Translations under genes and position numbers: made by a program
Origin: Pristiophorus japonicus
Lineage: Eukaryota
Direction of reading: 5' to 3'
Assembly (NCBI RefSeq): GCF_044704955.1
Contig: NC_091995.1
Span: 16,058,001-16,122,000, forward strand
DNA: 64,000 bases
The notes under the pieces: model-generated
What the model saw: the letters and a program-made list of their open reading frames with translations, nothing else
Database searches by the model: none
What the model was told of the DNA's origin: nothing
Shown: positions 156-49,641 of the stretch, piece by piece
Layout: each line of letters opens with the position of its first letter
How positions within the stretch are numbered: position 1 is the stretch's first letter

Positions 156-275
156 CTTTATTTCCCCATATCAGTCGAAATGTCAGAAATATGATTAAGA
201 CAGCTATCAAGGCCAGTGCGACCAGCAAAACCGGTGTTATATCGGTCTTCGCATTCTTTGGTACCTTTGTGCGGC
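156..275 (-). CDS. Gene A stalk/transmembrane exon (C)RTKVPKNAKTDITPVLLVALALIAVLIIFLTFRLIWGNK(G)
   Basis: Acceptor TCTGTTTATTTCAG, donor AAG|GTTTGT, 120 nt, phase 1-1, about 21 hydrophobic residues. Same length as the gene B TM exon, sharing the RTK start and ALAL core. Not in the ORF track. Confidence 0.85.
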
Positions 276-3200
276 CTGAAATAAACAGACTGAAGTCAGA
301 GTATTTTCATTGATATCGAAACGTAAGATAAATTATCAAAAGGAAACAGTTTCTATACTGAGTAAAAATGTTCACTTCTCAGTGGAACCAGAAGGTTTTG
401 TACACCTGCCAGACCTGTGTCATACCGGCAAAACCTCACCCTCACCGCCGTCCTTCCAGACGCTGATTTGCCCTCTGCATCAACGGCGCCACCTCCTTCA
501 AAGGTAATGGGGGAGGCAGCTAAGACCATTGTTCAAGTACAGACTTTCAAAGTCTCAGCAGAAAGAAGAAGCTGCTCCTCAAATTAGCATCGGCCTAAAT
601 TGGAACACCACTAAAAGATACTGAATTCAAAGTGGGTAGGAGACCGGGACTGTAAGTTGAGCGACGTGGAGCTCAAGATCATATTTTCAGAAAGAATGAA
701 GATGTCTCAGAAAGCAGTCACCCAATCTGCATGTTGGTCTCTGCAGTGCAGAAGGGACCACACCGTATATAGTAAATACTGGGCTAGTTTTCTCTGCTCC
801 TAAGCCTGGGGCTATCAGATCACCTGGGAACAATCAATCGAGGGGAGAGCATCCCACAAAACATCCCGGAGGAATTTACATCCATTGGCGTATGACCTGG
901 TAATCTCCCTTGCCGGCATGCACTCTTCCCCATCGGATTTTCTATACTCACCAGGAGTCATATCAACCTCGATTGAGATAGTAAAATGGGCGATATCGAA
1001 ATTTGCGCAAAATATTAATAGGCTGTGTCTGATCTTCCTTTCCATTGACTGTAATTGAAAGGAGAATCACGTGTTGTGTGTCGTGGGCGGCTGGTTCGAT
1101 ATCGCCCATTTTACAATCTCGCCCAAAGTTCAAAGTAGCTAAGAATATCCAACTCACCCTGTTGCACCAACAGAAATGTCGACCCTACAGTACTGTAGAT
1201 CGGGCGAGGTAATGCCATGGTTGTCCAACAGTGTTTGCGTATCTGGGCAATGAGTAAGCAGCTGTTACATCTACTGCTGCACGAAGTTAGTTAGGAGGAA
1301 CCTTTTTGCAGAACTTAAAAGTAGAAGGAAGGAATTCTTGGTGTTGGGATCATGTTGTAGGTGCAAGAAATGTCATGGGCTAATCTTGTCAATGCGGAGG
1401 TTGATGGTATGGAAGGTCACTCAAGTAGTGAAAGGAGGAATCAGGGATGATAGCAGAACAATGAAAAAGAGGGTCGGCGTTAAGCCTCTCGGTAAGAACT
1501 GAGACAACAGAAAAATATTAGTCCAGAGTGGGGTGGATGAGAATTCGAAAGGGGATTGTAGAAACATAAACAGCAAATGTCTTTGTGATAGTTTAGTTTA
1601 GGACGAAGAGATCAAGAGCAGGCAAAACCGCAGAGAAAGATGTATAGGAGAATGGAGAAAAAAGATCATCCTGTTCAAAAGTAAGACAGCAGCAAAGATA
1701 TCTCAGCATGAAGTCCAGCTTGGAATTCACTGAAGTGGATCAGGGTCAGAAAGGGTAACGTCAAAGGGAAGGGTCAAAACCTGGGAGCAGATGTCTTACT
1801 AAAGTGAAATTAAAAGGAAAGATCTGCTTGAAGAAAGTGAAGGGGAAGTGAGATGAGGGTGTGTGCCAATACCGAGAGCTGCATCGATTTCTTGTATTTC
1901 CCACCAGGCAACAGAGAGGGTTGATGAGGGCAATACAGTTGATGTAGTGCATTTGGACTTCTAAAGGGCGTTTGATAAAGTGCTACATTATAGGCTTTCT
2001 AGCAAAGTTGATGCCCATGGAATAAATGGGACTGTGGTAGCTTGGATATGAAATTGGCTAAGTGACATGAAGCAGAGTCGTGCTGAATGGTTGTTCTCGG
2101 ACTGGAGAAAGGAATACAGTGGTGTTCGCCAGGGAGCGGTACTCGGACCACTGCTGTTCTTGATATATTAATGATTTGGACTTAGAGGTACATTGCGTTA
2201 CTTCAAAATTTTAAGATGACACAACACTTGGAAGTATAGTGAACAGTGAGGAGGATAGGAGTAGACTTCAAGAAGGCATAGATAGGCTGGTGGAATGGGC
2301 GGACACATGGCAATGAAGTTTTAGCCATAAAAGTGCGACGTGTTACATTTTGGTAGGAAGAACCAGGAGAGGCAATATCAACTAAAGGGCACAATTTTAA
2401 TAGAGAATAGAGAGATCCAGGTGGCAGGAGAGGCTGAGAAAACAGTAAAAAAAAACGTATAGGATCCTGGGCTTTGTGAATAGATGCACAGAGGTCAAGA
2501 GCAGATCTGCCATGATCTTAATGAATGGCGGAGCAAGGTCGAGGGGCCAAATGGCCTACTCCTGCTTCTATTTCTTATGTTCTTATGTATAACAAAGTAG
2601 TTATGATGAACTTGTATAAAACACTGGTTCGGCCTCAACTGAAATATTGTACAATACTGGACAACGCACTTTAGAAAGACTTTGGAGAGGGCGCAGAATA
2701 GATTCACAAGAATGGTTCTAGAGATGAGGGACATCAGTCACGTGGATAGACTGGAGAAGCTATGGTTGTTCTCCTTAGAGCAAAGAAGGTTGAGATGAGT
2801 TTTGATAGATATGTTCAAAATCATGAGAGGTCTAGACAAAGTAGGGAGAGAGAAACTTTTACCATTGGTGGAAGGGCTGAGAACCAGAGGACACAGATTT
2901 AAGGTGCTTAGCAAAAGATCCAAAGGTGACATGAGGAAAAACATTTTTACGCGGCAAGTGGTTATGATCTGGAATGCACTGCCTCAAAGCGTATTGTTGG
3001 CAGATTCATTCGTGGCTTTCAAATGGGAATTTGATAAGTACTGGAAAGCAGGATAATGAAGGGCTACGGGGAAAGGATGGGGGAGTGGGACTAGCTGAGG
3101 TGCTCTTGCAGAGTGCCAGCACGAGCTCGATGTGCCGAATGGCCTATTTCTGTGCTGTAACCATTCTATGATTCTGTGCTTAACGTCTGTGTGCTTGAAA

Positions 3201-4938
3201 TGCTTCTCCATTCGCTTCTTTTTCTTCAATGTTATTAAACAACTTGATCATCATTCGGTTTTCAGTGTCTACACTGTCCTTCCTCCTTGCAGATGCTGAC
3301 AGACCTCCTGGGTGATGCAGCATTTATGGTGTGTTTTTTTTAATTTGATGAGACAATTGCTTGTTAATATTAACCATACAGCTGCATAAAATAAAGTGAC
3401 AATTATAACAATTTGACACTGGAAAACAAATTAACATGTGACCCCAAACCTGAGTAAAATCACGAAAAATGTTCTATAAATCATTATTTTCAATTGGTAC
3501 TTACATTTAATTTCTAGTGTGTTGCCATTGTCGACACCAGGCCACTCTCCTACTATGTTACAGTAATAGGTCTCTGAGTCTCGCTCCGTCAAGCCAAGGA
3601 TGTTACTGCAAACTCTTTCATTGCCAAACGCCTCCAGGTCTGCTTTCTGCAAGCGCCCTTTATACGTCGAGTGGTTGTCCAGATTTTCGCCAGCTGGTTG
3701 ACCTTTTGTCCATTGTGTTAAGTTGAATATTGAACGTTTTTTCTCAGAATGCAAGGTGCAATTCAATGTTACTGACTGGCTCTCTGTTGCAGTTACAAAG
3801 GGAGAGAACACAAAAATGGCACCATGACTCTGATTGTTAATTCTAAATTCCGTCAAATCTGTAATTTATACCAGTCAATTAGATATATCTGTCAAATGGA
3901 TAATGGGGAAAGGAGATCCTTCTCGTCTCCATTTCTCACGTTACAGATAAATATTAGTGAATTATATATTATATATTCATAATCATCATCTTCATCATAG
4001 GCAGTCCCTCGAAGCGAGGGTGACTTGCTTCCACGCCAAAAAGGGATGAGTTCACAGGTGTTTCAAGAAGGACCTAATATTAGAGATCCGGAACTACATC
4101 GTGAAGGGTGGAAGATGCCTGTACTTGGATTTTTTTAACGTGTGGTGGCCGTTGCACACCAGCCACTACATAGGCTTGACAGAGCTAGGTCTTGGTCCAG
4201 TGGCAAGGATTACCCAAGACTAATTGGAGACCAACTCTGCTGCACAGATGGAGCGTGCACACGCAGTGCGGGCTGGTCCCTCGCCTCTTCTGGGCCCCAG
4301 ATTTACGCCTCGCCTAGGCTCCGGTCACTTCCCTCTACGATCTCTTGCCGCTCCTTTGCCCCTCCTGCAGTGCTTGCCTGCACTGCAATCAACGACCTGG
4401 CTTCGTAGCCGTCGCCCTCTTGCAGCAAATATATATATATATATATATTTGGATTCCTCTTCCCCAGAGAGGGGTGGAGGCTGGGTCATTGAAACATAGA
4501 AACATTGAAGATAGGAGCAGTAGTAGGCCATTCGGCCCTTCGTGTTTGCACCGCCATTCAATATGATCATGGCTGATCCTCTATCTCAACACCATATTCC
4601 TGCTTTTTCCCCATACCCCTTGATGTCTTTTGTGTCTAGAAATCTATCTATCTCCCTCTTAAATATATTCAGCTACTTGGCTACCACAGCCTTCTGTGGA
4701 AGAGAATTCCACAGGTTCACCACCCTCTAAGTGAAAACATTTCTCCTCATCTTGAATTTATTTAAGGTGGAGATAAACAGATGTTTCAATGATAAGGGAG
4801 TCAAGGGTTATGGGGAGCAGGCAGGCAAGTGGAGTTTAGGCCAAGATCAGAGCAGCCATGATCTGATTGAACGGTGGAGCAGGTTCTAAGGGCTAAATGG
4901 CCTACTCTTGCTCCTATTTCTTATGTTCTTATGTATTC

Positions 4939-4974
<36 letters not shown>

Positions 4975-4979
4975 GTGTC

Positions 4980-5011
<32 letters not shown>

Positions 5012-11000: not shown

Positions 11001-11323
11001 GATGAAGCACATCTCAGAAGCGATCAAGTCAAATATTTCTATGTCGGCATTATATATTCAATTAGGGTTCAACTTGAAGTTTTGGAGGAAATGGCAACCA
11101 TTAGTGCCAACGCAATTTATTGACAGAATCGTCTTAACATCAACATAGAAGACTGCAAATAATTCCCAATTGCTTAAAACCTTCAATTGAAAGTGGTGCG
11201 CCTTATCGCTGCATTGTACAATTACAACCGAAGAGAATAAATTAACTCACCGGTGCATAGTGCAAAGGGAATCAGTTGCATAAAGGCAATTCGCTGGATG
11301 AATTGCATCTTCTCTGTACACAT
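156..11323 (-). CDS. Gene A: NKp30/NCR3-like single V-J Ig-domain type I membrane receptor; spliced, 3'-partial (cytoplasmic exons lie left of the window)
   Basis: Three exons join in phase 1 with GT-AG introns and no stop: leader 11251-11308 (or 11323), V domain 3505-3858, stalk/TM 156-275. Exon sizes and phases mirror gene B (58/354/120 nt vs 58/342/120 nt). Confidence 0.85.
620..790 (-). mobile_element. Penelope-like element fragment
   Basis: Similar to 43120-43395 (GTCACCCAATCTGCAT...GGTCTC...ACCACA), the GIY-YIG part of the Penelope copy in this window. Confidence 0.5.
975..1120. repeat. 26-bp inverted repeat (hairpin), probably part of a MITE-like element
   Basis: GAGATAGTAAAATGGGCGATATCGAA (975-1000) vs TTCGATATCGCCCATTTTACAATCTC (1095-1120): one mismatch, 94-nt spacer. 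Confidence 0.75.
1915..3178 (+). mobile_element. CR1-clade LINE, 5'-truncated and degenerate (RT 3' half plus 3'UTR)
   Basis: Decayed DFxKAFDKV and GSVLGP motifs, ORF 2802-3056 (FKIMRGLD...RTRGH), ATTCTATG-type tail. A short second LINE/SINE 3' end is inserted near 2495-2590. Confidence 0.85.
3505..3858 (-). CDS. Gene A Ig V-set exon (NKp30-like, V and J-like strand in one exon)
   Basis: Lies inside ORF 3431-3856. Shows VTLNC...W...YKGRL...LTERDSETYYC...NGNTLEIK. Acceptor TAAATTACAG, donor T|GTAAGT, 354 nt, phase 1-1. Confidence 0.92.
3980..4426 (-). mobile_element. Retroposon 3' fragment with (GAT)n tail, RTE-like
   Basis: Minus strand ends GAGGGACTGCCTATGATGAAGATGATG. Clade assignment is from recollection only. 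Confidence 0.4.
4490..4935. mobile_element. Two CR1 3'-end fragments in opposite orientation
   Basis: CR1 3'UTR motifs (AATGGCCTACTC, TTCTTATG/TTCTATG tails) on minus at 4490-4750 and on plus at 4755-4935. Confidence 0.75.
4938..5010. repeat. Compound microsatellite (TA)n(TG)n
   Basis: Directly visible dinucleotide runs. Confidence 0.95.
5325..5690 (-). mobile_element. CR1 LINE 3' fragment
   Basis: ORF 5281-5589 resembles the CR1 ORF2 C-terminus; ATTCTATG tail. Confidence 0.75.
6000..6600 (+). mobile_element. CR1 LINE 3' fragment
   Basis: LYKSLFRPQLDFCIQFWAP...VQKRFTRM motifs, 3'UTR and tail. Confidence 0.85.
6826..8535 (+). mobile_element. CR1 LINE, 5'-truncated, RT domain with frameshifts and stops
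   Basis: KSPRSDGLHPRVL, NYRPVSLTS, QHGF, FDKVPH and KFADD motifs across broken ORFs; TTCTTATG tail. Confidence 0.92.
8878..9915 (-). mobile_element. CR1 LINE 3' fragment
   Basis: YINDLD...SKFADE and WAPHFRKD...[12 protein letters not shown] on minus. Confidence 0.88.
11251..11323 (-). CDS. Gene A signal-peptide exon (MCTEK)MQFIQRIAFMQLIPFALCT
   Basis: In-frame ATGs at 11323 and 11308; donor ACCG|GTGAGT, phase 1. Clearly homologous to the gene B leader [19 protein letters not shown]. Confidence 0.85.
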
Positions 11324-11400
11324 GGTAAAGTTATGTAGGATGTGATACAACCTCCAGATGGACAGTCTCAATATAATAACTGGGCGTGAATGGAAAAATT

Positions 11401-11434
11401 TGTGGTCTTTCTATTTAGGTACATGGAGTTCCTG
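11401..11434 (-). promoter_or_regulatory. Putative proximal promoter of gene A: RUNX site (TGTGGTC) and ETS-like CAGGAA
   Basis: TTTGTGGTCTTT lies about 90 bp upstream of the ATG, and the same 12-mer lies about 80 bp upstream of the gene B ATG. Confidence 0.45.
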
Positions 11435-11749
11435 TTATTGTTCGATGTGAAGGCAACATTTCAAAGCTTAGGGTGGCCAGTAAAAAAATAATCTCCAATG
11501 CCGATTAAAATATGTTTCAAGGCAAACCTCGTTATTGCTTATTTTGCAGTTCAGAGAGGAGACGGATGGTTTGAATGCAAATTATGTCCTTATCAACATA
11601 TAATCAAATAAATTGTGCACTGTTGATGTATGCTGACGGCGAATATCAGAAAAATCGATCACACTCTCGTTTTAATGGATGGGAAGCCACACATTCTGAT
11701 CGTGCTGAATTTCGCTGCATAAGTTCCAGGCGGGCTACAGGAGCCTGCT

Positions 11750-12480
11750 TTTTAATTATTTATCCCTGTGATGTAGGTGTCGCTGGCAAGGCCTAGCATT
11801 TATTTCCCCTCCCTAATTGCCTTAGAGAAGGTGGTGCTGAGCGACCTTCTTGAACCACTGCAGTCCGTGTGATGAAAGTGCTTCCACAGTACTGTTAGGG
11901 AGGGAGTTCCAGGATTTTGACCCAGTGACTATGAAAGAACTGCAGGTCAGGATGGTGTGTGACTTGGAGGGAAACTTGGATGTGATGGTGTTCCAATGTG
12001 CCTGCTTCCCTTATCCTTCATAAAAACATGGGAAGATAAGAATTCGGAGCAGGAATAGGCCATATGGTCCGATCGAGCCTGGTCCATCATTCAATAAGAT
12101 CTTCAACCACAACTCCAATTCCCACTCTTATCCCTATATTGCTTAGAGTCCAAAAGTCAATCTATCTCAACCTTGCATATACTCAACGACTGTACATCAA
12201 CAGCCCTCTGGGGCAAAGAATTCCAAAGATTCACAGCTGTTTGAGTGCAGAAATTCTTCCTTGTTTCATTCTTAAAGGCTGACCCCTTATCCTGAGACTA
12301 TGCCCCCGAGTTCTAGACTCAGCATCCATGGGAAACAATTTATCAACATCTATCCTGTCAATCCACCTCAGAATCTTATATGTATCAATTAAATTTCCTC
12401 TCATTCTTCTAAATGCCGAAGAGTATAGGCCTAGGCTACATTCCAGATGATAGAGGTCGCACCAATGAAATCTTTGCTCA
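11750..12480 (-). mobile_element. LINE 3' fragments (second CR1-like family at 11750-12020; CR1 at 12020-12480)
   Basis: The GCTGGCAAGGCC...CCCTAATTGCC...GAGAAGGTGGTG motif recurs near 14100, 14590, 27220 and (reversed) 52290. RMRGNLIDTYKI motif in ORF 12231-12503. Confidence 0.7.
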
Positions 12481-13322
12481 TAATCTAAATATTCCACCAC
12501 CAAATAAAGTGCACAGAATTAATAATTAATTTGCTTGCTATGTGTACCGACATTCGAAATATATTTCTTCTTAAACGCTTTTGAGGAGCTCACTGCAGAC
12601 AGCAGCCTAATCTATTCAAGGAGCTTCAAGTTAAGTACACATCACGGAAAGGTGATTGGATTATAGTCATAGCAACGAAGGTCATTAGCAATTGTCGTCA
12701 TACGTTCCATCTATGAGACTCATCCAGTGCTCTCTTGACCCTATTTCCACTAAAGTACTGACCACCAAACTTGCTTGCCTAGAACACTCCTCAAAAAAAC
12801 ATCCTTGACCCCTCTGTACTTGAAGACAACCGCCCCATATCCTGCCAAGAGTTTCCTCTCCAAAATCCTTCAACTTGTTTTCACTTCTAAAATCCGTGAG
12901 TATCTTTCCCGCAGTCCGAGGTTTGAATTTTTCCCATCAAGATTCTTCCCCTGCGGCATGAATGGCAAAGCAAGTGTTGTGCTGTGTCCATTCAATTCTC
13001 CACCTTTGGATTGAAGGGAGTGGAACGCGAGGGTGGCTGGTGGCACTGGGTGAACAGCTAGGGTGAGAGAGCTTCATGGTTCGACTGAGGAGAAAGTCGG
13101 AGGTGAGGACATGAGTGAACAGATCGACAGCTGAAAAAGTATTCTGGTGAATGGCGGTCCGAAGACTTGTCAGTTCGAAATTTGAAAGTGCCGTTGTAAG
13201 TGACTTTGTGAGAGGTTTTTTTCAGTGAAGTTTGAGTCAGTGAAGAAAAACAATTCGACCAAGCATCGCCCACGCTGCACCTAGATAGGTGACAGAAAAA
13301 GCCAAGTGCCTAAAATAAAACC

Positions 13323-21130: not shown

Positions 21131-21139
21131 CTACTTGGA

Positions 21140-22350: not shown

Positions 22351-22359
22351 GAACATTAA

Positions 22360-27134: not shown

Positions 27135-27141
27135 TTATTTC
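27135..27141 (-). CDS. Gene B probable terminal coding exon (R)K-stop followed by 3'UTR
   Basis: Strong acceptor TTTTTCATGCTCCCACAG|G AAA TAA TAG completes the phase-2 codon and gives tandem stops, followed by unique sequence. This is the least constrained exon of the model. Confidence 0.55.
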
Positions 27142-30100
27142 CTGTGGGAGCATGAAAAATCAGCATACAATTAATTCTGTAACAATGTTTTAATTTATTT
27201 ATTTGATGTGGGTGTCATCTGCAAAGCCAGCATTTATTACCCATCCGTAATTTCCTTTGAGAAGGTGGTGGTGAGCCACCATTTCAGTGGGTAATTAAGA
27301 GTCAACCACATTGCTTTGGGTCTGGGGTCACATATAAGCCAGACCATGTAAGAATGGCAGATTTCCTTCGGTAAAGGACATTAGTGAACCAGATGTGTTT
27401 TACAACAATCCAGTAGTTTCATGGCCACCATTACTGATATTAGCTATATTTAATTATTTAATTAATTGAATTTAAATTCCCCAGCTGCCGTGGTGGGATG
27501 TGAACTCACGTCTATTAGATCAATAATCCATAAGCATTCGGTTGTGAGTTGAAGCCTAGTAAATTGCTCGCGATTATCGACTGTGCCTTTTATTGTTGAT
27601 GCAATGCATTTAGTCTCGTTTAACTATTACCATTGAACAAGGTTTAAAGGGGGAGCGAGAAACAGGTAAACGGAGAAACTGGATCGAAGCATTTGTTGCT
27701 AAACTGAAGTCGCCATTAATAAAAATTGATAATTAATAATTTTGCTCAAAAGTCAGTGTCTACCAGCCCTGCTAGCTCTAAACTGTAGTGTTAGTGGATG
27801 GCAGGGAATATTAAACCAAGGTCGCGCACAAGAGATTTGTGTGCAAAATTAAAGCACATGGTGTTGGGGGTAATGCATTGTCGGGGATAGGGAATTGATT
27901 GGCAGACAGGAAGCAGAGATTCGGAATAAACAGGTCCTTTTCAGAATGGCAGGCAGTGACCAGTGGGGTGCCGCAGGGCTCAGTGCTGGGATCCCAGCTA
28001 TTTACAATATACATAAATGATTTAGATGAAGGAATTAAAGTAATATCTCCAAGTTTGCAGATGACACTAAGCTGGGTGGTGGTGTGAGCAGTGAGGAGGA
28101 TGCTAAGAGGCTGCAGGGTGATTTGGACAGGTTAGGTGAGTGGGCAAATGCATGGCAGATGCAGTATAATGTGGATAAATGTGGGGTTATCCACTTTGAT
28201 GGCAAAAACAGGAAAACAGAATATTATCTGAATGGTGACAGATTAGGAAAAGGGGAGGTGCAACGAGACCTGGGTGTCATGGTAGATCAGTCATTGAAGT
28301 TTGGCATGCAGGTACAGCAGGACGTGAAGAAGCAAATGGCATGTTGGCCTTCATAGCTAGAGGATTTGAGTATAGGAGCAGGGAGGTCTTACTGCAGTTG
28401 TACAGAGCCTTGGTGAGGCCACACCTGGAATATTGTGTTCATTTTTGGTCTCTTAATCTGAGGAAGGTCGTTCTTGCTGTTGAAGGAGTACAGCGAAGGT
28501 TCACCAGATTCATTCCTGGGGTGGCAGGACTGACAAATGAGGAGAGATTGGATCAACTGGAGAGACTGGAGACTGGGCTTGTATACACTGGAGATTAGAA
28601 GAATGCGACGGGATCTCATGAAAACATATAAAATTCTGACGGGATTGGACAGGTTAGAGGCAGGAAGAATGTTCCCCGATGTTGGGGAAGTCCAGAACCA
28701 GGGGTCATAGTCTAAGGATAAGGAGTAAGCTATTTAGGACCGAGATCAGGAGAAACTTCTTCACTTAGAGAGTGGTTAACCTGTGGAATTCTCTACCACA
28801 GAAAGTTGTTGAGGCTAGTTCGTTAGATATATTCAAAAGGGAGTTAGATATGGCCCTTATGGCCAAAGGGATGAAGGGGTATGGAGAGAAAGCAGGAAAG
28901 GGCTACTAAGGTTGAATGATCAGCGATGATCTTACTGAATGGCGGTGCAGGCTCAAAAGGCCGAATGGCCTGTCCCTGCACCTAATTTCTATGTTTCTAT
29001 GTAACTTTCTTAGTTACATTTTATAAAAAAATATACTAATCAAATTACTGTCGGTGAAAACTCATGATGTATGCATTTGAAACAAATAACTTTAGCTCAT
29101 TGTCCGTTCCCCTCGGAACATTAGTTGAGACATGCATCGTGTGAAGAGGCAACTTGCATTTTTTGTGGTATATATTTGATAGCTTGCAGAGTTGTGTGAG
29201 ATCGTACCTGTTCAGCTCACTGTAACTGTCCACACCTTTCAGCTCCAAACCCTTATAAAAATGGAAGAAATCCATATTATTTCAAACCCTTGAGATAGAA
29301 AAAGGCTGCTGTTAATTTATTCAGGATAATCAGTTCATGTATTTTACCATGTATGTAGAATCCACGTTAGTGTGATTACCGGTTTCAGTCTGCGAGACAC
29401 CTATATCGAAATAACGACACCAAATAACATTGAATAAATAAACTATTATAATGTTACAAGTACATCTTCTGTCTGCCTATCATCTATCTATCGATCTATC
29501 TACCTAGCTATCTCTCTATAGACACATGCAAACACAGAAAATTGGAGTAGGAGTAGGCCATTCGACCTTTCGAGCCTGCACCACAATTCAACAAGATCAT
29601 GGCTGATCAGTCACCTCAGTACCCCTTTCCTGCTTTCTATCCATACCCTTTGATCCCTTGAGCCATAAGGGTCATATCTAACTCCCTCTTGAATATATCT
29701 AATGAAGTGGCATCAACAATTATCTGCGGTAGCGAATTCCACAGGTTAAAAGCTGTCTGACTGAAGAAGTTTCTCCTCTTCTCGGTCCAAAATGGCTTGC
29801 CCCTTATACTTAGACTGTGACCCCTGGTTCTGGACTACCCCAACATCGGGAACATTCTTTCTGCATCTACCCTGTCCAGTCCCGTCAGAATTTTTAATGT
29901 TTCTATGAGATCCCTTCTCATTCTTTTAAACTCCAGTGAAAATAAGCCTAGTCAATCCAGTCTTTCTTCGTGTATCAGTCCTGCCATCCCAGGAATCAGT
30001 CTGGTGAACCTTCGCTGCACTCCCTCAATAGCAAGAACGTCCTTCCTCAGATTAGGAGAACAAAACTGAACCCAATATTCCAGGTGAGGCCTCACCAAAG

Positions 30101-39100: not shown

Positions 39101-42100
39101 CTCCCCAACATTTGCAGTGCCCCTACTGACAGAAATTAACTCATTAAGCACTGACCCCGAAGTCGAACGCGGGTTTTTCGTGCTCAGTATAACTCAATGC
39201 CGCTCCCGCATTTGGAGAAAGGTTTATAATATGTTGAATAGACGCTTCATGAAATGTTGGCGTGACGGAAAATATGAGAAGGAAGCAGAATAAAAATGAA
39301 AAAAAGACTAACATTTCTACAGGACATCAGGACATCAGGACATCCCAAAGCACTTTATAGCCAATGAAGTACCTTTGAAGGGTAGTCATTGTTGTAATGT
39401 AGGAAACACAGCAGCCAATTTGCGCACAGCAAGCTCCCACAAATAGCATTGACCAGATAATCTGTTTTTAGTGACGTTTATTGAAGAATAAATATTGTGC
39501 AGGCATGAGGGAGCACACCCTTGCCCTTCTCCGAAATAAGGCCATGGATCTGTCATGTCTACCTGAGAGGGCAACTGGAGCCCCTGTTTAACGTCTCATC
39601 TGAAAGACGGCACCCCCGACAATGCAGCGCTCTTTCAGGATTGCACTGCCGGATTTGAACCCACAAACTTCTGACTCAGCAGGCGAGAGAGTGCTACCCA
39701 CTGACCCACACTGTCAGATAGTAAACTGATAAGAAACGATATTGCCCTCGCTCTTAGCCAAAAGGCCAAGATATAAATAAGATCACAACATTTAAACCTT
39801 ACACTTGAATTTCGTAAACTACTGAGTGAAATAAATCGATGTAAATATATGAACTGTCATTTGGTGTCCATGATGGTGACGTTTCGGAGGTTGAAAATAT
39901 AACTATAATGTAGGGAAAAGTAAGAAAATATTAATGAACAATCCCTTCACTTTGACTCTCGGGATGAAAAAATATGGCGCAATAATTACGCATGCCAATT
40001 AGTTATTAATTTCGATTGCCCGCTATTTAAAGACAGACACAAATTTATTGATTACAACAAATAAAAGCCGATGTCAAAATTGTGTGAGGAGATGTAGCAC
40101 TGTCTAATTTTGCCACACTTGCCTTACTATCATGTGCTGAGCGAGACACGCCACCACGTTGCAGATTATTAAGTAGTGTAAACAATGCACTGCACTGGCA
40201 TGCGGCAAACTAATACTACAGTCATTGAAACAGAGAGAACGGAATCATGCCAATACTCTACCTGTAAAATTAGAACAGATTTATTTTATCAAGAATGGTT
40301 GGTATTTGCAACTTACGTATCACTTCCAATTTGGTGCCATTTCCGTATCTCTCCCCTTCTCCCATTAAGTCTATCCGGCAATAATAGATGTCTGAGTCTT
40401 TCTCAGTTAAGTCGGAGATGTTAATGAATATTCTGCTGTTGGCAAATGAATATCTGTCGGATTTCTGCAGCCGGTCTGCATAAAACGGACTGTCGTTCAG
40501 TTTGTACCCATTTGGATTTCCCCGTGTCCAATCAGCAATGCCGACCGGAAGTAGGGTTCCTTCAAAAGCCATGGCACAGTGCAGTGTCACTGACTCCCCC
40601 TCTGTCGTACTTATAAAGGGAGGGAACTGGTAGACCGTGATATTCATCGTCCCACCTGCTGAAAAATTAAGTTTAATCTTTAAACCAGATGAATACTGCC
40701 CTCCACACCTGGCTAATGCTGATCAGTTTTCTGATCTTAAAGGTAATCATGCCTTTCACATTATATAAAGACAATTATAAAAAGTTAAACTTAGAACATA
40801 AGTAATAAGAGCAGGAGTAGACATTTGGTCGCTTGAGCCTGCTCCACCATTCAATAAGATCATGGCCGATCTGACCTTGGCCTCAACTGCATTTCCCTGC
40901 CCGCTCCCCATAACCCTTGACTCCTTTTTCGTTCAGAAATCTGTCTATCTCCACCTTAAATATATTCAATGAAACTTGAAGGCTGAAAACTCAAAATGCT
41001 GCAAATATACAACTGACTCTAGAACTATACAACATATGCAGGGTTATTCGGCCACTCAAATCAGCTATTGAACTAAAAATGAGATTTTGAATGCTATGAC
41101 ATTTATAATTTCTCGTTTATTCAGAAATTGTGTTTGCACAGAGTTGGGTGAATCTGCTAAACCGAGTGGCAACGAGAATTTAGTGCGTGTGAATTCAGTG
41201 ATAAGTAACGGGTAATTAGAACAGATTGCATCAACCTGAAATTTATCAACATTTTCTTATTCTAAAGCTGTGAATCATGCAAGTTAACAGTCAATTACCT
41301 GACTAGCTGTTAATTCTAAAAACAAAATATTGTGGATGCTGGAAATCTGAAATAAAAACGGAAAATACAGGAACTGATACACGAACTATCAGAATGATAC
41401 CCGGATTAGCATAATAATATTCAGATTTCAAGGGTTAAGTTATGAGGATAGCTTACACAAATTAGGGTTGTATTCCCTAGAATTTAAATGTTAAGGGATG
41501 ATTTGATCAAAGTTTTCAGGAACAGCTAGGGGAGATAGAGATAAACTATTTCTGCTTTTTAGGGAGTCTAGGACTAGGAGCCATAGTCGAAAAGTTAGAG
41601 CCAGGCCATTCATGAGTGAAATTAGGAAACACTTCTACACACAAAGGGTGGTAGAAGTTTGCAACTCTTTTCTGCAAATGGCAATTGACGCTAGATCAAT
41701 CATTAATTTTAGATGTGAAATTGATAACTAACCATATTAAGGGATATGGAGAAAAAGCCGGTATGTGGAGTTAAATCGCAGATCAGCCATAATCTCATTG
41801 AATGGCAGAACAGGGCTGAATCACCTCCTCCTATTACTATGTTCCTATGATCCTAAATACCCAACAGGTCAGGCAACATCTGTGGAGAGAGAAACAGGGT
41901 TAATGTTTTAGGTCATAATAACATAAGAGCATAAGAAATAGGAGCAGGAGTACGCCATTTGGCCCCTCGAGCCTGCTCCACTACAAGAGTAAGATTCAAT
42001 ATCAAAGATGTTATCTGGATATGATGGGAGCCCTGAGCTGGCTAAACAAAACGTACACAAGATGACGACTCGTTGCTCTTTGATCTCGGAATCAATGGAG

Positions 42101-45100
42101 CAATAAAGGACATCCAATGAGGATCTAATATAACCATATAACAATATAAGGCGAGTGACACCTGGAAGAAGGGAACAAATGGATATTTGATCGTGGGTTG
42201 TTACAAACAATCACGTGACTGTTAAGGTCTGTCCACGAAGACACTCATGTGCTAAAGCCTGTATAATTGAGGTGCAATTTCAACAGCTCGTTGGAGATCC
42301 TCTCTCAGCTGGCTGAGAAGTGAGATGCTCCCCCTTCACGTGTTGGAATTAAAGTCATTGAAATGTATCCAATGTATCCGTCTGTTGAACCCGGACTTGT
42401 TAAGAGAGGAGAAGGGTGATTCTCCCCATCATCCGCCATTCAATAAGATCTAGGCTGATCTGATCATGGACTCAGCTCCACTTCCCTGCCCGCTCCCCAT
42501 AACCCTTTAGTTCCTTATCGCTGAAAAATCTTCAATGATATCCACAGCTCTCTGGGGCAGAGAATTTCATAGATTTACAACCCTCGAAGAGAAGAAATTT
42601 CTCATTATCTCAGTTTTAAATCGGCGGCCCCTTATTCTGAGATTATGTCCCATAATTTTGCTTTCCCCTCTGAGTGGAAATATCCTCTCTGCATCCACCT
42701 TGTCGAGCCCCCTCATTATCTTATATGTTTCAATAAGATCACCTCTTATTCTTCTGAACTCCAAGGCCCAACCTACTCAACCTATCTTCATAAGTCAACC
42801 CCTCATCTCCGGAATCTCTAGTGAAAGGTCATTGAACTTTCATCAGAACTGGAAAAAGTTAGAGACGTTACAAGTTTAAGCAAGTGCAGGAGCAGGGAAA
42901 GGAGGTGAGAAGAAGAAAGAACAAAATGGAAAGTCTGTGATAGGGTGGAGGGCAGGAGTGATTAAATAACAAACGGGGTAACGGGCAAAGCAAAAGGAGG
43001 TGGTAATGGGACAAGCAAAGACACAAAAGATGACTCAGGAAGAGGTGTAAATGGTTAGATAAGAACAATTACCAGTACCTGCTGCACGAAATAAATGAGA
43101 GCAGTGATTATGATCTGAAATTGTTGAATTCACTTTTGAGTTCAGAAGGCTGTATAGTGTTTGATTGAAAGCTGAGGTGCTGTTCCTCGAGCTTCTGTTG
43201 AGCTTCGTTAGAACAGTGGAGGGGGCTGAGGAGAGAGAGCTCAGATTTGGGATGGGCACCGGAGAATTAAAATGAGAATTAAAAAGGTTCACGCTTGTGG
43301 ACTGACCGAAGATGTTCAGCAAAGCGGTCACCCAATCTGCATTTGGTCTCCCAGTGTGGAGGAGACCACATCGTGAGCAGCGAATACAGTATAGTAAATT
43401 GTCAGAAGTACAAGTAAATCTCTGCTTCACCTGGAAGGAGTGTTTGGGGCCCTGGACTGTGGGATAGGAGGAGGTAAAAGGGCAGATGTTGCATCTGCTG
43501 CACTTGCACAGGACGGTACCGTGGGAAGGGGAGGAGGTGTTGAGAACATAAGAACATAAGAATTAGGAACAGGAGTAGGCCATCTAGCCCCTAGAGCCTG
43601 CTCCGCCATTCAACAAGATCATGGCTGATCTGGCCGTGGACTCAGCTCCACTTACCCGCCCGCTCGCCATAACCCTTAATTTCCTTATTGGTTAAAAATC
43701 TATCTATCTGTGATTTGAATATATTCAATGAGCTAGCCTCAACTGCTTCCTTGGGCAGAGAATTCCACAGATTCACAACCCTCTGGTAGAAGAAATTCCT
43801 TTTCAACTCGGTTTTAAATTGGTTCCCCCGTATTTTGAGGCTGTGCTAAAACCGAGTTCTAGTCTCCCCGACCAGTGGAAACAACCTGTCTGCCTCTATC
43901 TTGTCTATCCCTTTCATTATTTTAAATGTTTCTGTAAGATCACCCCTAGAGGAGTGGTTCAGAGTGTCTCAAAGGGAACTGTCAGGCGCAGTGGAAGGGA
44001 ATCATTGGCTGAGGAAAAAGGAACGCATATCGGAAGCACTAATATGGAAGGTGCGATCGTCAGATCAGATGCAATGGAGATGAAAAAACTGGGAGACTGG
44101 AGTAGAGGCCTTATAGGAAGCATGTTTGGAGGAACTACAATTAAAGTATCTGTGGGATTCAGTGGGATTATCGTAGATATTAGTCAATAGTCCATGGAGA
44201 TAGAGAACTCGAGGAAAGGAGGGGAAGAATCAGAGATGGGCCATGTGAATGCGATGGACGGGTGGAAATTGGAAGCAAAGTTGATGATATTTTCCGGTTC
44301 AGGGCGAGAGAAGAAAACCGTGTCAATTCCAGTACAATACTGGAAAAAAAGGTTAGCGAGGGGACCAGAGTATGACTGTAACAAAGCATGTTCCACATAT
44401 CTCACGAAAAGGCATGCATATCTAGGACCCATACAGGTTCACATAGCAGCACCTTTTATTTGGAGGAAGTCAGTGGCGTAAAAGGAGAAGTTGTTGACTG
44501 TGAGAACACTTCTAACCAGGCGGAGGAGGGTGGTGGTAAATGGGAACTGGTTAGTCCTCCGTTCAAGGAAGAAGCGGAGCGCCCTCAGGCCATCCTGGTC
44601 ATGGATGTAGGTGTAGGGGACTGGTGTTAATTTTTGTGGCTGGCTGTTGGCTGACTAATTGTAACTCGTGTTTTTCTCAACGATATGTATTAGAGGGATA
44701 TTTGCTAAACATTCAGAGCTGTCTGTGCAGAGCTGGGTGAATCTGTTAAATGGAACAGCAGCGGTAATTTGGTGAGAGGTGGAATTCTGTGCAGAATATA
44801 AAGGAGGTGTAAAGTGCGTTAAACATAAGAACAAAACAAATAGAACAGGAGTAGGCCCTTTGGCCCCTAGAGCCTGCTCCGCCATTCAATAAAATCATGG
44901 ATCATCTGATCTTGGGCGCAGCTCCACTTCCCTGCCCGCTCGCCATAATCTTTGACTCCCTTAAACTAAGGGGCACTTGATGAATATATAAATAATCACA
45001 ATAAGTAATTTGAGGATACCAACAGTAAAGGGATCCAAATTGCATTAACTGAAATCTGATATAGATAAATAATTAAGTAATGAATAGGAGTAAGGCGGAT

Positions 45101-48100
45101 ACTAAAATAAAACATATATATATAACATAAGTAGATAATAAAATGATGTGACAGCTGAGACCCGTTGCCTGCAATTCCTATGCCATTTCCAGCACGTTTC
45201 TTGCATCCTGCATAATCATGTGTACAGGAAGTGCCTGCAGTTGCTCAAACTCGAGTTCAGGGTTTCTAAGCTTGAGGAGCGGCTGGACTCAATGCAGGTC
45301 ATACGGGAAGCTGGTAATTATCTGGAACCCAGGTTTCACGACGCAGCAAGTACAGAGAGCACCGGAGAATAGTAAGTGGGTGGCCATCCGGCAGGGTAGG
45401 TGGAGGAAGGTAGTGCAGGAATTCTCCGGAGTGTAGCACTCTGAAATTGGTTTTCTGTACGGAATACTTTGGGGCAAATAACTGCACAGGGAGACACAGC
45501 AAAGTATAGAAATGCAGTCGTCATAGGAGATTCGATAGTCACGGGAATATACACGCATCTCTGAAACTAACCACCTGAATCCCTCAGGGTGTGTTGCCTC
45601 CCTGGTGCCAGGACAAACTACATGACTGAGACGATACAAAACATTTTGAGGGGGGAGGGGAATAGCCAGATGTTGTGGCCCATGTGGGAACCGATGGCAT
45701 AGGAAGGAAAATGGGTCCTGCAATTCGAGTTTCATAAGCTACGGAGGTAATCAAAGATTACGAGCTCAAAAGTAGCAATCTCTGATTTACTCCCAGTGCC
45801 ACTCGCTAATGTATATAGAATAGTAGGATAAGATAGGTTAACACGTGCCTGATGAAATGGTGCAGGAGGAAGGATTTCACATTTCTGGGACAATGGGACC
45901 AGATCGGTGTGATTGGGGTGGGGGATTGGGGCGGATCTGTACAAGCTGGAAATATGGCATCCCAATAGAACAATGAGAGGTGATCGCATTGAAACATACA
46001 AGATTCTGCAGGGGGGTTGACAGGGTGGATGCTGAGAGGCTGTTTCCCCTGGCTGGAGCGTCTAGAACTAGGGGGCACAGTTTCAGGATAAGGGGTAGGC
46101 CATTTAAGACAGAGAGAAGGAGGAATTTCTTCATTCAGCGGGTTGTGAACCTTTGGAATTCTCTGCCCAATCTTATTGAATTGTGGAGCAGGCTCATCGA
46201 GCCGTAGGGCCTACTCCTGCTCCCAATTCTTATGTTCTTATGTAGAACTGGTACCAATATCCACATGGGATGGTTAACTGGTGCAATGGAGAAGGGTTTA
46301 AATGAATTTGGCTGGGGTATTGGCACAACCATGAAACAATAGCGAGGAGAAACAATGTGCACAGAGGACTGGGAGAGACAAATAGCACTAGAGTAAAGAA
46401 CAGTTCAGAAATAGGAGGATTTAGATGGGAGGAAAAGGCACTTCAGACTAAGATGGATCTGGAGTTCATGAGCATAAATGCACGTAATGTGCTAAATAAT
46501 ATTGGTGAGCTGCAGGCACAAATCGTCACATGTTACTTTGATATTATGGCAAAAAAAGAGACCAGATTCAAAGAAATGGGGAATTGGGAACTATTCCTGG
46601 CTATTAGGTACTCATGAAAGATAGAGAAGGAAAAAAGGAGGCGTGGCAATATTGATCAAATAAACTATTATAACACTGGAAATAGATGGTATAGTTGAGG
46701 GCTCAAAGCAAAATCTATTTGGGTAGAGTTAAGGAGCAATTGGGCTACTGGGTGTATACTATAGGTAACCAAATAGTACGAAAGCGTAAATTTTCAGGCA
46801 AATTACAGAACGATGCAAGAATTACAGAGTAGTGATAATGGGGGAATTCAAGTATCCTAATTTGGACTGGGATAGTAACAGTGTAAGGGGAAAAGATGTG
46901 AAGGAATACCTGAAATGTATACAAGAGAACTTGCACAATCAGTGTGTTTCCAGCCCGACGATGAAGGAAGCAGTGCTGGATCTCGTTCTGCGGAATGGAG
47001 TGCAGCAAGCGAAGTATATTTAAGTGGGGTATCATTTGGGGAGCAGTGATCAAAATATCATCAGGCTATGGAAAAGGACCAGGAATAATCAAGCATAAAA
47101 GTATTAACTAGGAGGGCTAATTTCAGTGAGTTAAAAATGAATCTGGCCCAGGTGGATTGGATCAACCATTGGTAGGCAAAACATTGATTGAACAATGAGA
47201 GGCCTTCAAAGAAGAGATGGTTCAACTAGGGAATAGAAACATTCCCATCAGAAGGAAAGGAATGTCATCCAAAGCTAGGGCTCTCTAAATGACTAAAGAT
47301 ATAGAGGTTACAAATAGGCAAATAAAGGAGGCCTATGATAAATGTAAGGTTCATAACACAGTAAAGAACGAAGCTGAATAGAGAAAGTACAGAGGAAATC
47401 TATAAAAGGAAATGAGGTACGAAGAGAGAGTATCTGAATAGATTAATGTTTAACATAAAACTGGACCTGAAAATCTTTTATAAACACATAAATAATAAAA
47501 GGGTAGTCAAAGGAAGGGTGGACCAAAAGAACCTAAAAGGAGATATGCTTGGCTGCAATAGTAAATGAGTACTTTGCAGCTGTCTTCACTGGAGAGGAGA
47601 CTGCTGCAAAGGTAGCGGTAAATTAGGAGGCAGTAGTTATATTGGATGGGATACAAATAGATAAAGAGAAGGTAATTGAACGTTTGGAAGTCCTCAAGAT
47701 CGAAATGTTACCCGGTCCGGATGGGATGCATCCTAGGTTGCTTTTGCAAGTAAGGGACTAAATTGCAGAGGCCCTGGCTACAATCTTCCAATCCTGCTTA
47801 GATATAGGGGTGGTACCAGAGGACAGGAGTATTGCAAATGTTACACTTCTGTTTAAAAAAGGGGAGTGGGTTAAACATGGCAATTGCAGGCCAGTCAGCC
47901 TAATGCCCGTGGTGGGGTTACTTTTAGAGATAATAATCCAGGACAAAAGGAATTGTCACTTGGAAAAGTATGGACTAATAAATAAAAGTCAGCGCAGAAT
48001 ATTTAAAGGCAAATCGTGTTTGACTAGCTTAATCGAATTCTATCATGAAGTATCGGAGAGGATTGCACTTTCAAAAGGCCTTTGACAAATTACCCCCGAA

Positions 48101-49641
48101 TAGACTTGTTAGCAAAATTGAAGCCCAGGGGATTAAAAGGACAGTGGTAACATGGATACGAAGTTAGCTAAGGGACATAAAGCAGACTGTAGTGGTGAAT
48201 GCTATTTTTTCAGAATGGAGAGAAATATACAGTGATGTTCCCCAGCGATAGGTAGAGAACCACTGCTCCTTTTGATATATATTAATTACATTGACTTGGG
48301 TATACACGGCATAATTTCAAAGTTTGCAGATGACAGGCAACTTGAAAATGCAGTAAATAATGAGGAAGATAGTAACAGACTTCAGGAGGGCATGGACAGA
48401 CTTGGTGAAATGGGGAGACACATGGTAAATGCAATTTAACGAAAATAAGTGTGAAGTGATATTTTTTGATGTGAAGAATTAAGAGAGGGAATATGAACTA
48501 AATGGTACAATTTAAATGGGGAGTACAGGAACAGATGGACCTGCGAAGTCAGGATCGAGTCTGTCCGGAAATTAGTAATTCACAAAACATTCGCCTAAAT
48601 ATGATTTAATCGGTCCTGCATTGGTTATGCAACTATGTCAGGTCTATAATCTGTCTGAATTTAAGGTGTCTTTTTCAATCTGCGCTTCAATGACTTTAGA
48701 ATGAAAATACACAAATTCATCCCAACATAAGTATTACCAGCAACATATATATTCTGTGATTCGCTTATAGTTTCTGCAGATGACTGCAGAGTTTTATTTA
48801 AATACTTGTACCGTTAGTGTGGATACCGAAGATGAGCGGCCGATGCAACTGGCCGAATTTTAAAATATATCAGAGAAAAACAGTCGTACGCGTTATTAAT
48901 AGTGCAGTAAGAATTCTATCTCTTAGCGACATGGCTGAGTGCATTCAGAAAGATTTTTCAGAAGCTGTGAAAAGTAAACTGAACTCTTCACTTACTTACT
49001 ACCTCGCTTACAATTAGTTTTCAGAGGAATTCCTGCTCTGCAAATTTAGAGCACCGAATGAAATTAATTCAGATCCATGCCCGGAAATGAAATACCAAAT
49101 AAAAAGAAAGTGTCAATTGATCGAATATTATCATTGGAGAGCACCGAGCACAAACAAGCTAGCATCATTCGAAAGTGGCACAAGTGATAGAGAAAATCGG
49201 GATTGCTGAAATCCATAGGTTACAGTATGGCAACTGTCTATGCATAATGGCACTATCACTTCACATTTTGTGAAAAAAACGTACCCTTATTACAGGAAAA
49301 TCACAGTAAGATAAGATCGGATGGCACGTAAGCAAATAATATATTCACCGATATACTGACATCGTTTCCAACACGCTAATTGTGTGCAAAGTATTCAATT
49401 TAAATGTATTTCAACATTATATTCAGAATTATACAGTACTATAAGGTAACGATGATAATAAGTTAACTAGAGCATCACAGATTACCCAGTTGTCTAACTT
49501 AACTACCTTAACTAGAATGTCAAATAGTACCGACTGGTATAAGTAGAGCATTATATAATAACGAATAATATAAGTTAACTAACCGGTGCTTAGCATAAAG
49601 AGAATCAGCTGTATAAAATTAATGTGTTGAATTAAAACCAT
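27135..49641 (-). CDS. Gene B: NKp30/NCR3-like single V-J Ig-domain receptor with uncharged TM and cytoplasmic ITAM, six coding exons, 207 aa
   Basis: join(49584-49641,40317-40658,38329-38448,29348-29400,29208-29251,27135-27141) is 624 nt and open throughout. All introns are GT-AG, phases 1,1,1,0,2. Domain order is leader-V-stalk-TM-ITAM-stop. Confidence 0.88.
27815..29002 (+). mobile_element. CR1 LINE, 5'-truncated, in the last intron of gene B
   Basis: [18 protein letters not shown] and RRFTR motifs; TTTCTATG tail. Confidence 0.92.
29208..29251 (-). CDS. Gene B cytoplasmic exon 2, [14 protein letters not shown] (distal ITAM half)
   Basis: Acceptor TTCCATTTTTATAAG, donor CAG|GTACGA, 44 nt, phase 0-2. 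Lies inside ORF 29045-29275. Confidence 0.8.
29348..29400 (-). CDS. Gene B cytoplasmic exon 1, (G)[17 protein letters not shown] (proximal ITAM half)
   Basis: Acceptor TTATTTCGATATAG, donor ATG|GTAAAA, 53 nt, phase 1-0. It supplies exactly the phase change needed between the TM exon and exon 29208-29251; a 96-nt intron follows. Confidence 0.8.
29530..32610 (-). mobile_element. CR1 LINE, disrupted near-complete ORF2
   Basis: Endonuclease (GVVYRP, GDFN) through RT ([18 protein letters not shown]) in broken minus-strand ORFs, plus 3'UTR. Confidence 0.92.
32762..34970 (-). mobile_element. L2-clade LINE, degenerate
   Basis: [18 protein letters not shown]...[26 protein letters not shown] near 33690-33702, GCTATATAAATACAAGT tail. 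Confidence 0.85.
35150..37000 (+). mobile_element. Two consecutive old CR1 3' fragments (35150-36050 and 36060-37000)
   Basis: GNYQPV and [11 protein letters not shown] remnants; two ATTCTATG tails. Confidence 0.75.
38329..38448 (-). CDS. Gene B stalk/transmembrane exon (R)[39 protein letters not shown]
   Basis: Acceptor TTTCATCATTTCAG, donor GTG|GTAAGT, 120 nt, phase 1-1. About 24 uncharged residues followed by a KWK stop-transfer. Not in the ORF track on this strand. Confidence 0.9.
39300..39715 (-). mobile_element. tRNA-derived SINE, DeuSINE/SacSINE1-like
   Basis: Reverse-complement homolog of 26157-26595 (TTTGTGGGAGCTTGCTGTGCGCAAATTGGCTGC; B box GGTTCAAATCC). Confidence 0.78.
40317..40658 (-). 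CDS. Gene B Ig V-set exon, natural cytotoxicity triggering receptor 3-like
   Basis: ORF 40270-40647 reads [20 protein letters not shown]...VGIADW...YADRL...[31 protein letters not shown], resembling the NKp30 end CRVEVLGLGVGTGNGTRLVV (recalled, not aligned computationally). Acceptor TTTTTCAG(CAG), donor C|GTAAGT. Confidence 0.94.
41982..42431 (+). mobile_element. Probable solo LTR (450 bp) in intron 1 of gene B
   Basis: Interrupts a CR1 3' end with a 5-bp TSD, TCCAC/TCCGC. Ends ...CATCA, with TATAAT at 42262 and ATTAAA at 42348 in U3-R-U5 order. It starts TA rather than TG. Confidence 0.6.
42820..44630 (-). mobile_element. Penelope-like retroelement (RT plus GIY-YIG remnants) with a CR1 fragment nested at about 43545-43948
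   Basis: [15 protein letters not shown] (PLE RT) and [20 protein letters not shown] (GIY-YIG). Further terminal pieces near 41318-41370 and 41860-41915. Confidence 0.82.
44650..48540 (+). mobile_element. Old CR1 LINE, ORF1 and ORF2 remnants, 3' end missing
   Basis: Remnants [31 protein letters not shown] and SKFADD with many stops. Small CR1 inserts near 44820-44965 and 45970-46245. Confidence 0.8.
49584..49641 (-). CDS. Gene B signal-peptide exon [19 protein letters not shown]
   Basis: ATG at 49641 in ACGATGG context, hydrophobic 19-mer, donor ACCG|GTTAGT, phase 1. Paralogous to the gene A leader. Confidence 0.87.

What the first reader, a model, noticed from the sequence alone, without database searches (positions are those of the whole stretch)
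156..49641. Tandem cluster of diverged paralogs, a possible paired-receptor family
Seen: two same-strand genes have matching architecture (58-nt leader ending ACC G|GT, phase 1-1 V exon, 120-nt TM exon starting xRTK). They share only 24/50 identical residues between the V-domain Trp and the second Cys, and both lack a charged residue in the TM core. Gene A's tail is outside the window. Inference: this is an old duplication in a multigene cluster. If gene A ends in ITIMs, the locus is an activating/inhibitory pair where both partners signal through intrinsic motifs.
Basis: partly seen in the sequence, partly recalled or inferred. Interest (0 to 1): 0.7.

Follow-up and report, generated by a model that had tools for sequence, protein, structure and literature searches.

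The report
Shark NKp30 receptors with on/off tails
These two shark genes belong to a large cluster of relatives of the human killer-cell receptor NKp30; one is predicted to carry its own 'on' switch and the other an 'off'-type tail, so the family likely balances immune activation and restraint without the adaptor protein that human NKp30 needs.

Summary
Observation confirmed. Both genes are shark NCR3/NKp30-family VJ receptors in a cluster of 37 V exons over 2.3 Mb, on the contig that also carries MHC class I. Gene B has a consensus ITAM split by a phase-0 intron over two small exons in the window (29400-29208). Gene A's tail lies 1.5-3.6 kb left of the window and carries two ITIM-like tyrosines; its sevengill-shark orthologue has two strict ITIMs. 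So both tail types exist, but A and B are not a true pair: their V domains are 39% identical. B's closest partners are three ITIM genes on the opposite strand 69 kb away (67%, dS 0.21). B's V exon matches theirs while its membrane exon does not, so B is likely a chimera. A second ITAM gene sits on an unrelated V subtype. Splicing and signalling are predicted only; no RNA was available. The family and ITIM-type tails are already in databases, and this scan noted them in other shark genomes. I found no ITAM-tailed NKp30 in print, but the key paper (Kinlein 2021) could not be read.

The parts
49584..49641 (-). Gene B leader exon, 58 nt, phase-1 donor
40317..40655 (-). Gene B germline-joined VJ exon (G-strand GNGT motif in the same exon); best PDB match human NKp30; 71% to nurse shark NCR3 QTT61901
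38329..38448 (-). Gene B stalk/TM exon, 120 nt, uncharged core, consensus GTAAGT donor; single copy in the genome search
29348..29400 (-). Gene B cytoplasmic exon 1 (53 nt, phase 1 to 0), ends D-S-T-Y-M, the first half of the ITAM; acceptor is moderate
29208..29251 (-). Gene B cytoplasmic exon 2 (44 nt to a possible donor, or terminal with read-through to a stop near 29046); completes the ITAM (YxxL-x7-YSEL). An alternative acceptor at 29288 would give GLK-stop
11251..11308 (-). Gene A leader exon, 58 nt
3505..3858 (-). Gene A VJ exon; weak upstream acceptor (3858) gives a whole V domain, stronger internal acceptor (3783) drops strands A/A'; first Gly of the GxG motif lost
156..275 (-). Gene A stalk/TM exon, 120 nt. 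The tail continues outside the window: 29-nt exon at G000:C19:16056554-16056526 and terminal exon from 16054611 with QYYAQL and VEYASI

Best explanation
The two genes are members of the shark NCR3/NKp30 receptor cluster, in which gene B is predicted to be an activating receptor with its own ITAM and gene A a likely inhibitory receptor, with B's likely counterpart being the neighbouring ITIM genes C/D/E rather than A. Shown in sequence: open exon chains with GT-AG sites, uncharged TM cores, a consensus ITAM in B, tandem ITIM-like tyrosines in A and C-E. Inferred mechanism: ligand clusters B, Src-family kinases phosphorylate the ITAM and Syk/ZAP-70 bind, with no CD3zeta/FcRgamma adaptor needed; A and C-E would recruit SHP-1/2 (pathway knowledge, recalled). 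Inferred origin: B is a chimera of a C-type V exon and a different TM-ITAM back half, and its ligand-facing loops then diverged, as in CEACAM1/CEACAM3-type pairs.
For: V(B): four best PDB hits are human NKp30 (E 7.7e-10); best of 182 library hits is nurse shark NCR3, 71%. Cluster: 37 of 38 genome hits lie on C19 at 15.67-18.00 Mb; 22 of 41 MHC class I hits and 9 of 33 complement-TED hits (three loci) are on the same contig; NCR3 genes are listed on shark and sawfish MHC chromosomes in the supplement of PMC10751288. B chain is open for 258 aa and fits D/ExxYxxL/I-x6-8-YxxL/I with the phase-0 split that PMC5112662 calls characteristic. A second cluster gene, F (V at 17.499 Mb), has a matching 44-nt exon, 26 of 44 nt identical, and a shark multi-Ig receptor family uses the same cassette. 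A's exon chain matches database models P0158 (Heptranchias, LHYSQL + LEYASV) and P0011. B-C V exon dS 0.21 against 1.0 for B-A; TM exons B-C 42 of 117 nt against A-C 66 of 117; apart from repeats and the leader, B-C DNA similarity is a 528-bp block around the V exon. B and C are divergently oriented. Loop dN/dS 3.5 against 0.45 elsewhere (Fisher p 0.035).
Against: No transcript evidence for B's TM-to-ITAM splice across an 8.9-kb intron; the first tail acceptor scores only 5.8 on my crude scale, against 8-11 for B's other acceptors. No database protein joins a C-type V to an ITAM: none of the 9 relatives shows one (6 read, regex over stored proteins), and no model of B of 197 aa or more was found. 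A loose split-ITAM pattern fires 19 times in 1.06 Mb, mostly by chance, and misses B. B-C identity (67%) is below the 80-93% of Xenopus CEACAM pairs, and B and C differ at 6 of 11 ligand-site positions. The B+C/D/E grouping was 98/83 in one tree but unresolved in a second. The loops were chosen after seeing the sequences and the test is pairwise. A's motifs are non-strict, and its annotated V lacks strands A/A'.
Confidence: 0.7

Rival explanations
1. A and B are the activating/inhibitory pair for one shared ligand.
For: Adjacent, same strand, same exon sizes, opposite tail types. Both lie in one V clade (100/99), and a B+A clade was not rejected (p-AU 0.215). B's leader is slightly closer to A's (40 of 58 nt) than to C's (34 of 58).
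Against: V identity 43 of 111, dS about 1.0, 1 of 11 ligand-site positions shared; C/D/E are much closer to B.
Confidence: 0.07
2. B is not expressed with the ITAM: it stops after the TM exon or at the alternative acceptor, and the ITAM exons are an orphan remnant of a lost gene.
For: No RNA or database model for the join; 8.9-kb repeat-rich intron; moderate first acceptor; a competing acceptor at 29288 scores 8.2 against 9.4; no clear last exon was found.
Against: The TM donor is the full consensus, phases match, the motif is intact, no other V, leader or TM exon was found between them, and gene F shows the same TM-then-ITAM layout.
Confidence: 0.13
3. The tails are as predicted, but the genes are independent receptors for different self ligands (for example different B7H6-like proteins) with no pairing logic; the ITAM cassette is an old option in the family rather than a recent graft.
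For: ITAM tails sit on two unrelated V subtypes (B+F one clade rejected, p-AU 0.0004); B is as close to nurse and bamboo shark C-type V (77-78 of 113) as to its own C (75 of 112); no recent conversion (dS 0.21); B and C differ at 6 of 11 ligand-site positions.
Against: B's V exon is far closer to C than its TM exon is; the inverted arrangement matches the one described for CEACAM pairs; none of the C-type orthologues read shows an ITAM.
Confidence: 0.1

Closest known systems
Shark NCR3 family (Kinlein et al. 2021, seen only as a reference-list title; nurse shark QTT61901 = P0002, QTT61898 = P0104)
   Same: Single-exon VJ domain, TM, MHC chromosome, multigene cluster; V(B) 71% to QTT61901, whose tail has VEYATI.
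   Different: B has an ITAM tail on a V subtype whose database members read here carry ITIM-type tails or no motif; the cluster here has 37 V exons against 5 NCR3 rows for white shark in the PMC10751288 supplement. I saw 2 of the 8 nurse shark proteins.
Human NKp30 (NCR3, CD337)
   Same: Best structural-database match by sequence for V(B); highest TM-score among the listed fold matches for V(A) (0.75, rank 19 by E-value).
   Different: Human NKp30 has a TM arginine, signals through CD3zeta/FcRgamma and has no signalling motif of its own (PMC6514059 passages). A and B have uncharged TMs and their own motifs. Only 3 (B) and 1 (A) of 11 B7-H6 contact residues are identical.
CEACAM1/CEACAM3-type paired receptors (mammals, Xenopus; PMC2832619, PMC5112662)
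   Same: Intrinsic ITIM versus intrinsic ITAM, phase-0 split ITAM, opposite orientation, similarity confined to the V exon, non-synonymous excess in loops.
   Different: Different IgSF family; CEACAM pairs are 80-93% identical with recent conversion, B-C only 67% with dS 0.21.
Shark multi-Ig receptor family (P0060, Chiloscyllium XP_043552676; 14 exon copies in this genome)
   Same: Same ITAM exon design (TYM | xL-x7-YSEL; 24 of 43 nt identical in the second exon).
   Different: Unlinked and multi-domain; the intron core shows no homology to B's (461 of 1000 shuffles as good), so a donor relationship is not shown.

Membership tests
NCR3/NKp30 family | Single-exon, non-rearranging VJ domain | tested here: met
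   V and G-strand in one exon with a splice donor; no RSS nonamer within the scanned 550 bp; one heptamer-like word inside B's coding sequence
NCR3/NKp30 family | V domain closest to NKp30/NCR3 | tested here: met
   B. A: no NKp30 hit by sequence against PDB (3 weak antibody hits) but groups with B and nurse shark NCR3 at 100/99
NCR3/NKp30 family | Linkage to the MHC | tested here: met
   Same contig as 22 class I exon hits (40-57 Mb) and three TED-domain loci (36.6-41.0 Mb), 19-41 Mb away; the DDAH2 neighbour and class II could not be located
NCR3/NKp30 family (mammalian type) | TM arginine and adaptor-dependent signalling | tested here: not met
   No charged residue in either TM core; two other cluster members do have Arg at the start of the TM
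NCR3/NKp30 family | Binds B7-H6 | not testable with these tools
   Only contact-residue conservation was checked: 3 of 11 (B), 3 of 11 (C), 1 of 11 (A); no B7H6 gene was searched for
ITAM-bearing receptor (gene B) | D/ExxYxxL/I-x6-8-YxxL/I with phase-0 split of the first YxxL | tested here: met
   consensus from PMC5112662; depends on the predicted splice
ITIM-bearing receptor (gene A) | I/L/V/S-x-Y-x-x-L/V | tested here: inconclusive
   QYYAQL misses position -2 and VEYASI ends in I; both positions are strict in the Heptranchias orthologue
Paired receptors (A with B) | Highly similar ligand-binding domains | tested here: not met
   43 of 111 residues, 1 of 11 ligand-site positions
Paired receptors (B with C/D/E) | Similar ligand domains, opposite motifs, inverted orientation | tested here: inconclusive
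   Opposite motifs and orientation met; 67% identity and 5 of 11 ligand-site positions are intermediate
Paired receptors | Shared ligand and overlapping expression | not testable with these tools
   needs binding and expression data

The most novel reading that the evidence does not exclude
Shark NKp30 is a three-mode receptor family in the MHC: ITIM brakes, Arg-TM adaptor users like human NKp30, and a self-sufficient ITAM class made at least twice by grafting a portable two-exon ITAM cassette behind unrelated VJ domains. Gene B would be a CEACAM3-like decoy built from an inhibitory receptor's V exon, its loops under positive selection, which would make the shark cluster a KIR/LILR-scale NK and T-cell tuning system and human NKp30 its reduced remnant.
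Probability: 0.3. Interest if true: 0.65.

Novelty: new variant of a known kind. Interest (0 to 1): 0.42.

Why it matters
Human NKp30 is one adaptor-dependent activating receptor. If sharks use dozens of NKp30 relatives with inhibitory, adaptor-coupled and built-in ITAM tails, the oldest conserved NK receptor began as a balanced family, and a non-rearranging antigen-receptor-like domain can signal on its own. It gives named, testable candidates (B against C/D/E) for how cartilaginous fish regulate cytotoxic cells, which is poorly known. The surprise is moderate: the family, its MHC linkage and ITIM-type tails are already on record, and ITAM/ITIM pairing is known from CEACAMs.

Tried and rejected
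Expression: no RNA holder was listed for the B V exon; no evidence either way. Kinlein 2021, Flajnik 2012 and Ohta & Flajnik 2015 are not held, so prior description of an ITAM subtype is open; ten paper searches showed none in the listings or passages read. Protein search with B's TM exon: 33 candidates, none scored (weak evidence). Genome searches with A's terminal exon, B's TM exon and B's ITAM DNA each found only themselves. MHC class II and DDAH profile searches were blank, which does not show absence. A fossil ITIM exon behind B was not seen. B's last exon is unresolved. Descent of B's cassette from the multi-Ig family: the whole-cassette alignment beat 300 of 300 shuffles but the intron core did not, so it was dropped. 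Two apparent ITAM halves near 17.53 Mb were rejected as repeat-derived. My second-exon query and two chains were off-frame by one base; corrected. The pattern was built from three known exons, so those hits are by construction (18 hits, 1 in the reversed control). No complex prediction was run.

Full report
1. Observation. The window is G000:C19:16058001-16122000 of a 5.9-Gb genome; about 59% of it is repeat covered five times or more in the DNA held. A named sawshark (Pristiophorus japonicus) protein model, P0011, matches gene A's V exon at 99% and runs through its TM and tail exons, so this is likely that species. Both genes are on the minus strand and every stated feature holds: 58-nt leaders ending ACCG|GT, phase 1-1 V exons, 120-nt TM exons starting xRTK, 24 of 50 identities, uncharged TM cores.

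2. Family. V(B) hits human NKp30 first among 211 PDB sequences (E 7.7e-10) and nurse shark NCR3 QTT61901 first among 182 library hits (71%). V(A) is more diverged: it has no NKp30 hit by sequence, but its model (pLDDT 81) is a V fold whose highest TM-score among the listed matches is NKp30 (0.75; SIRP-alpha ranks first by E-value), and it groups with B and the nurse shark protein at 100/99. A genome search with V(B) gave 38 matches, 37 on this contig between 15.67 and 18.00 Mb. The contig also carries 22 of 41 MHC class I hits and three thioester-domain loci (9 of 33 rows). The supplement of PMC10751288 lists NCR3 genes on the MHC chromosomes of white shark, catshark and sawfish. This is the known MHC-linked shark NCR3 family.

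3. Gene A's tail. It lies left of the window: a 29-nt exon (C19:16056554-16056526) and a terminal exon from 16054611, giving an open chain with GT-AG sites and the motifs QYYAQL and VEYASI. The Heptranchias orthologue P0158 has the same exon pattern with two strict ITIMs. By the consensus in PMC5112662, each motif of A misses by one position, so A is ITIM-like and perhaps weakened. Both database models start the V exon at the internal acceptor (3783), which scores 8.9 against 3.7 for the upstream one and removes strands A/A' of the model. Whether that short domain folds is unknown.

4. Gene B's tail. A 53-nt exon (29400-29348) and, 96 nt on, an exon from 29251 join in frame to D-S-T-Y-M | G-L-x7-Y-S-E-L, a full consensus ITAM with the phase-0 split typical of ITAMs. 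Chance check: a loose split-ITAM pattern fires 19 times in 1,064,000 bases and misses B because of its moderate first acceptor, so the motif alone proves little. Stronger support: a tighter pattern modelled on B finds only B and one more exon in the same DNA; that exon belongs to gene F (V at 17.499 Mb), follows a TM exon in frame, has the same length to the donor-like site and 26 of 44 identical bases. A bamboo shark multi-Ig protein retrieved by V similarity ends in a near-identical ITAM (P0060), and its relatives in this genome use the same two-exon design. A genome-wide pattern built from these three exons gave 18 hits against 1 in the control: B, F, 14 of the multi-Ig type and 2 unassigned. 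Against: no RNA or database model shows the join, and an alternative acceptor would cut the ITAM in half.

5. Who pairs with whom. I held 1.06 Mb of and around the 2.34-Mb cluster. Eleven two-tyrosine ITIM-type exons were found: 9 of the 10 regex rows (one row was a dinucleotide repeat and was dropped) and 2. Two genes have ITAM tails and two have Arg at the start of the TM; many V exons remain unassigned. A and B share 43 of 111 V residues with dS about 1.0. B shares 75 of 112 with C, D and E, three ITIM genes on the plus strand whose first start codon is 69 kb from B's, facing away; dS is 0.21. B's TM exon is not close to C's (42 of 117 nt, against 66 of 117 for A-C), and apart from repeats and the leader B-C similarity is a 528-bp block around the V exon. 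This fits a V exon copied or converted onto a different back half, the pattern reported for CEACAM pairs (PMC2832619 and PMC5112662 passages), but older and looser than their 80-93%. In trees of 51 and 18 V domains, B with C/D/E was supported once (98/83) and open once; B+F as one clade was rejected (p-AU 0.0004), B+A was not (0.215), and a clade of the C-type ITIM rows without A and B was not rejected either (0.08). Three loops (36 codons) show dN/dS 3.5 against 0.45 for the other 75 codons (p 0.035); the loops were picked after seeing the sequences. At 11 positions equivalent to the NKp30 contacts with B7-H6 (table in PMC3135353), B and C agree at 5, A and B at 1.

6. Mechanism. Shown: exon chains, motifs, uncharged TMs. 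Inferred: B signals through its own ITAM to Syk/ZAP-70, A and C-E through SHP-1/2 (recalled pathway knowledge). Human NKp30 instead uses a TM arginine and CD3zeta/FcRgamma and has no motif of its own (PMC6514059 passages). Ligands are unknown.

7. Novelty. The family and its MHC linkage are published, and ITIM-type tails are in public proteins, also in NCR3-like proteins of newt and lungfish. Earlier notes of this scan describe such clusters in other sharks. I found no ITAM-tailed NKp30-family gene in ten paper searches, in the stored proteins apart from an ITAM-spaced pair in the long multi-tyrosine tails of P0164 and P0032, or in the notes shown. Kinlein 2021 and its supplements could not be read and may already describe one. 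Papers seen: PMC12227049 abstract and passages; PMC10751288 passages and supplement rows; PMC6514059, PMC3135353, PMC2832619, PMC11599192, PMC11302387, PMC12272517, PMC10450919, PMC12863176 passages; PMC5112662 abstract and passages; Kinlein 2021, Flajnik 2012 and Ohta 2015 as reference titles only.

8. Verdict. A real, intact-looking part of a known receptor cluster with one likely new feature, built-in ITAM tails on two unrelated NKp30-family V subtypes. Interest 0.42; new variant of a known kind.

Noticed in passing
G000:C19:16172001-16302000 (L016-L028): Genes C, D and E lie in three 50-kb units about 98-99% identical over 30 kb: a recent triplication or an assembly artefact. C has VEYDTI where D and E have VEYATI. 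Each unit holds broken V fragments of the same subtype.
   Followed up: partly
L001:8689-8671: A 19-nt stretch in gene A that looks like gene C's first small tail exon but has AT in place of the GT donor; skipping it keeps A's tail in frame (by eye).
   Followed up: partly
L001:6611-6440: Gene A's terminal exon has a second open frame that also contains an ITIM-consensus word (IEYARV).
   Followed up: no
G000:C19:17395063-17413079 (L042-L044): Four tandem VJ exons about 1.6-2.3 kb apart followed by one TM exon: a multi-domain NKp30-family receptor.
   Followed up: no
G000:C19:17609138-17598433 and 17872374-17864059: Genes like Heterodontus P0033: a VJ exon followed by small exons with YDDI/YDEI motifs and no TM exon found.
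   Followed up: no
G000:C19:17547387 and 17251276: TM exons with Arg near the outer end, the human NKp30 type.
   Followed up: partly
G000:C3:316.6-319.3 Mb: Nine near-identical MHC class I matches with alpha1 and alpha2 in one open frame (intronless), off the MHC contig.
   Followed up: no
G000:C9 and unplaced contigs (C691, C699, C1414, C1816, C2277, C2571, C3782, C3961, C4060): A large multi-Ig receptor family with at least 14 copies of an ITAM second exon.
   Followed up: partly
G000:C6:165212296 and C6:213663630: Two unassigned matches to the ITAM-exon pattern; could be chance.
   Followed up: no
window:20946-19906 and gene A: Database model P0011 fuses repeat-derived pieces, gene A and the next gene on the left into one 480-aa protein; likely an annotation error.
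   Followed up: yes
G000:C13:85287380-85287655: One weak V match off the cluster.
   Followed up: no
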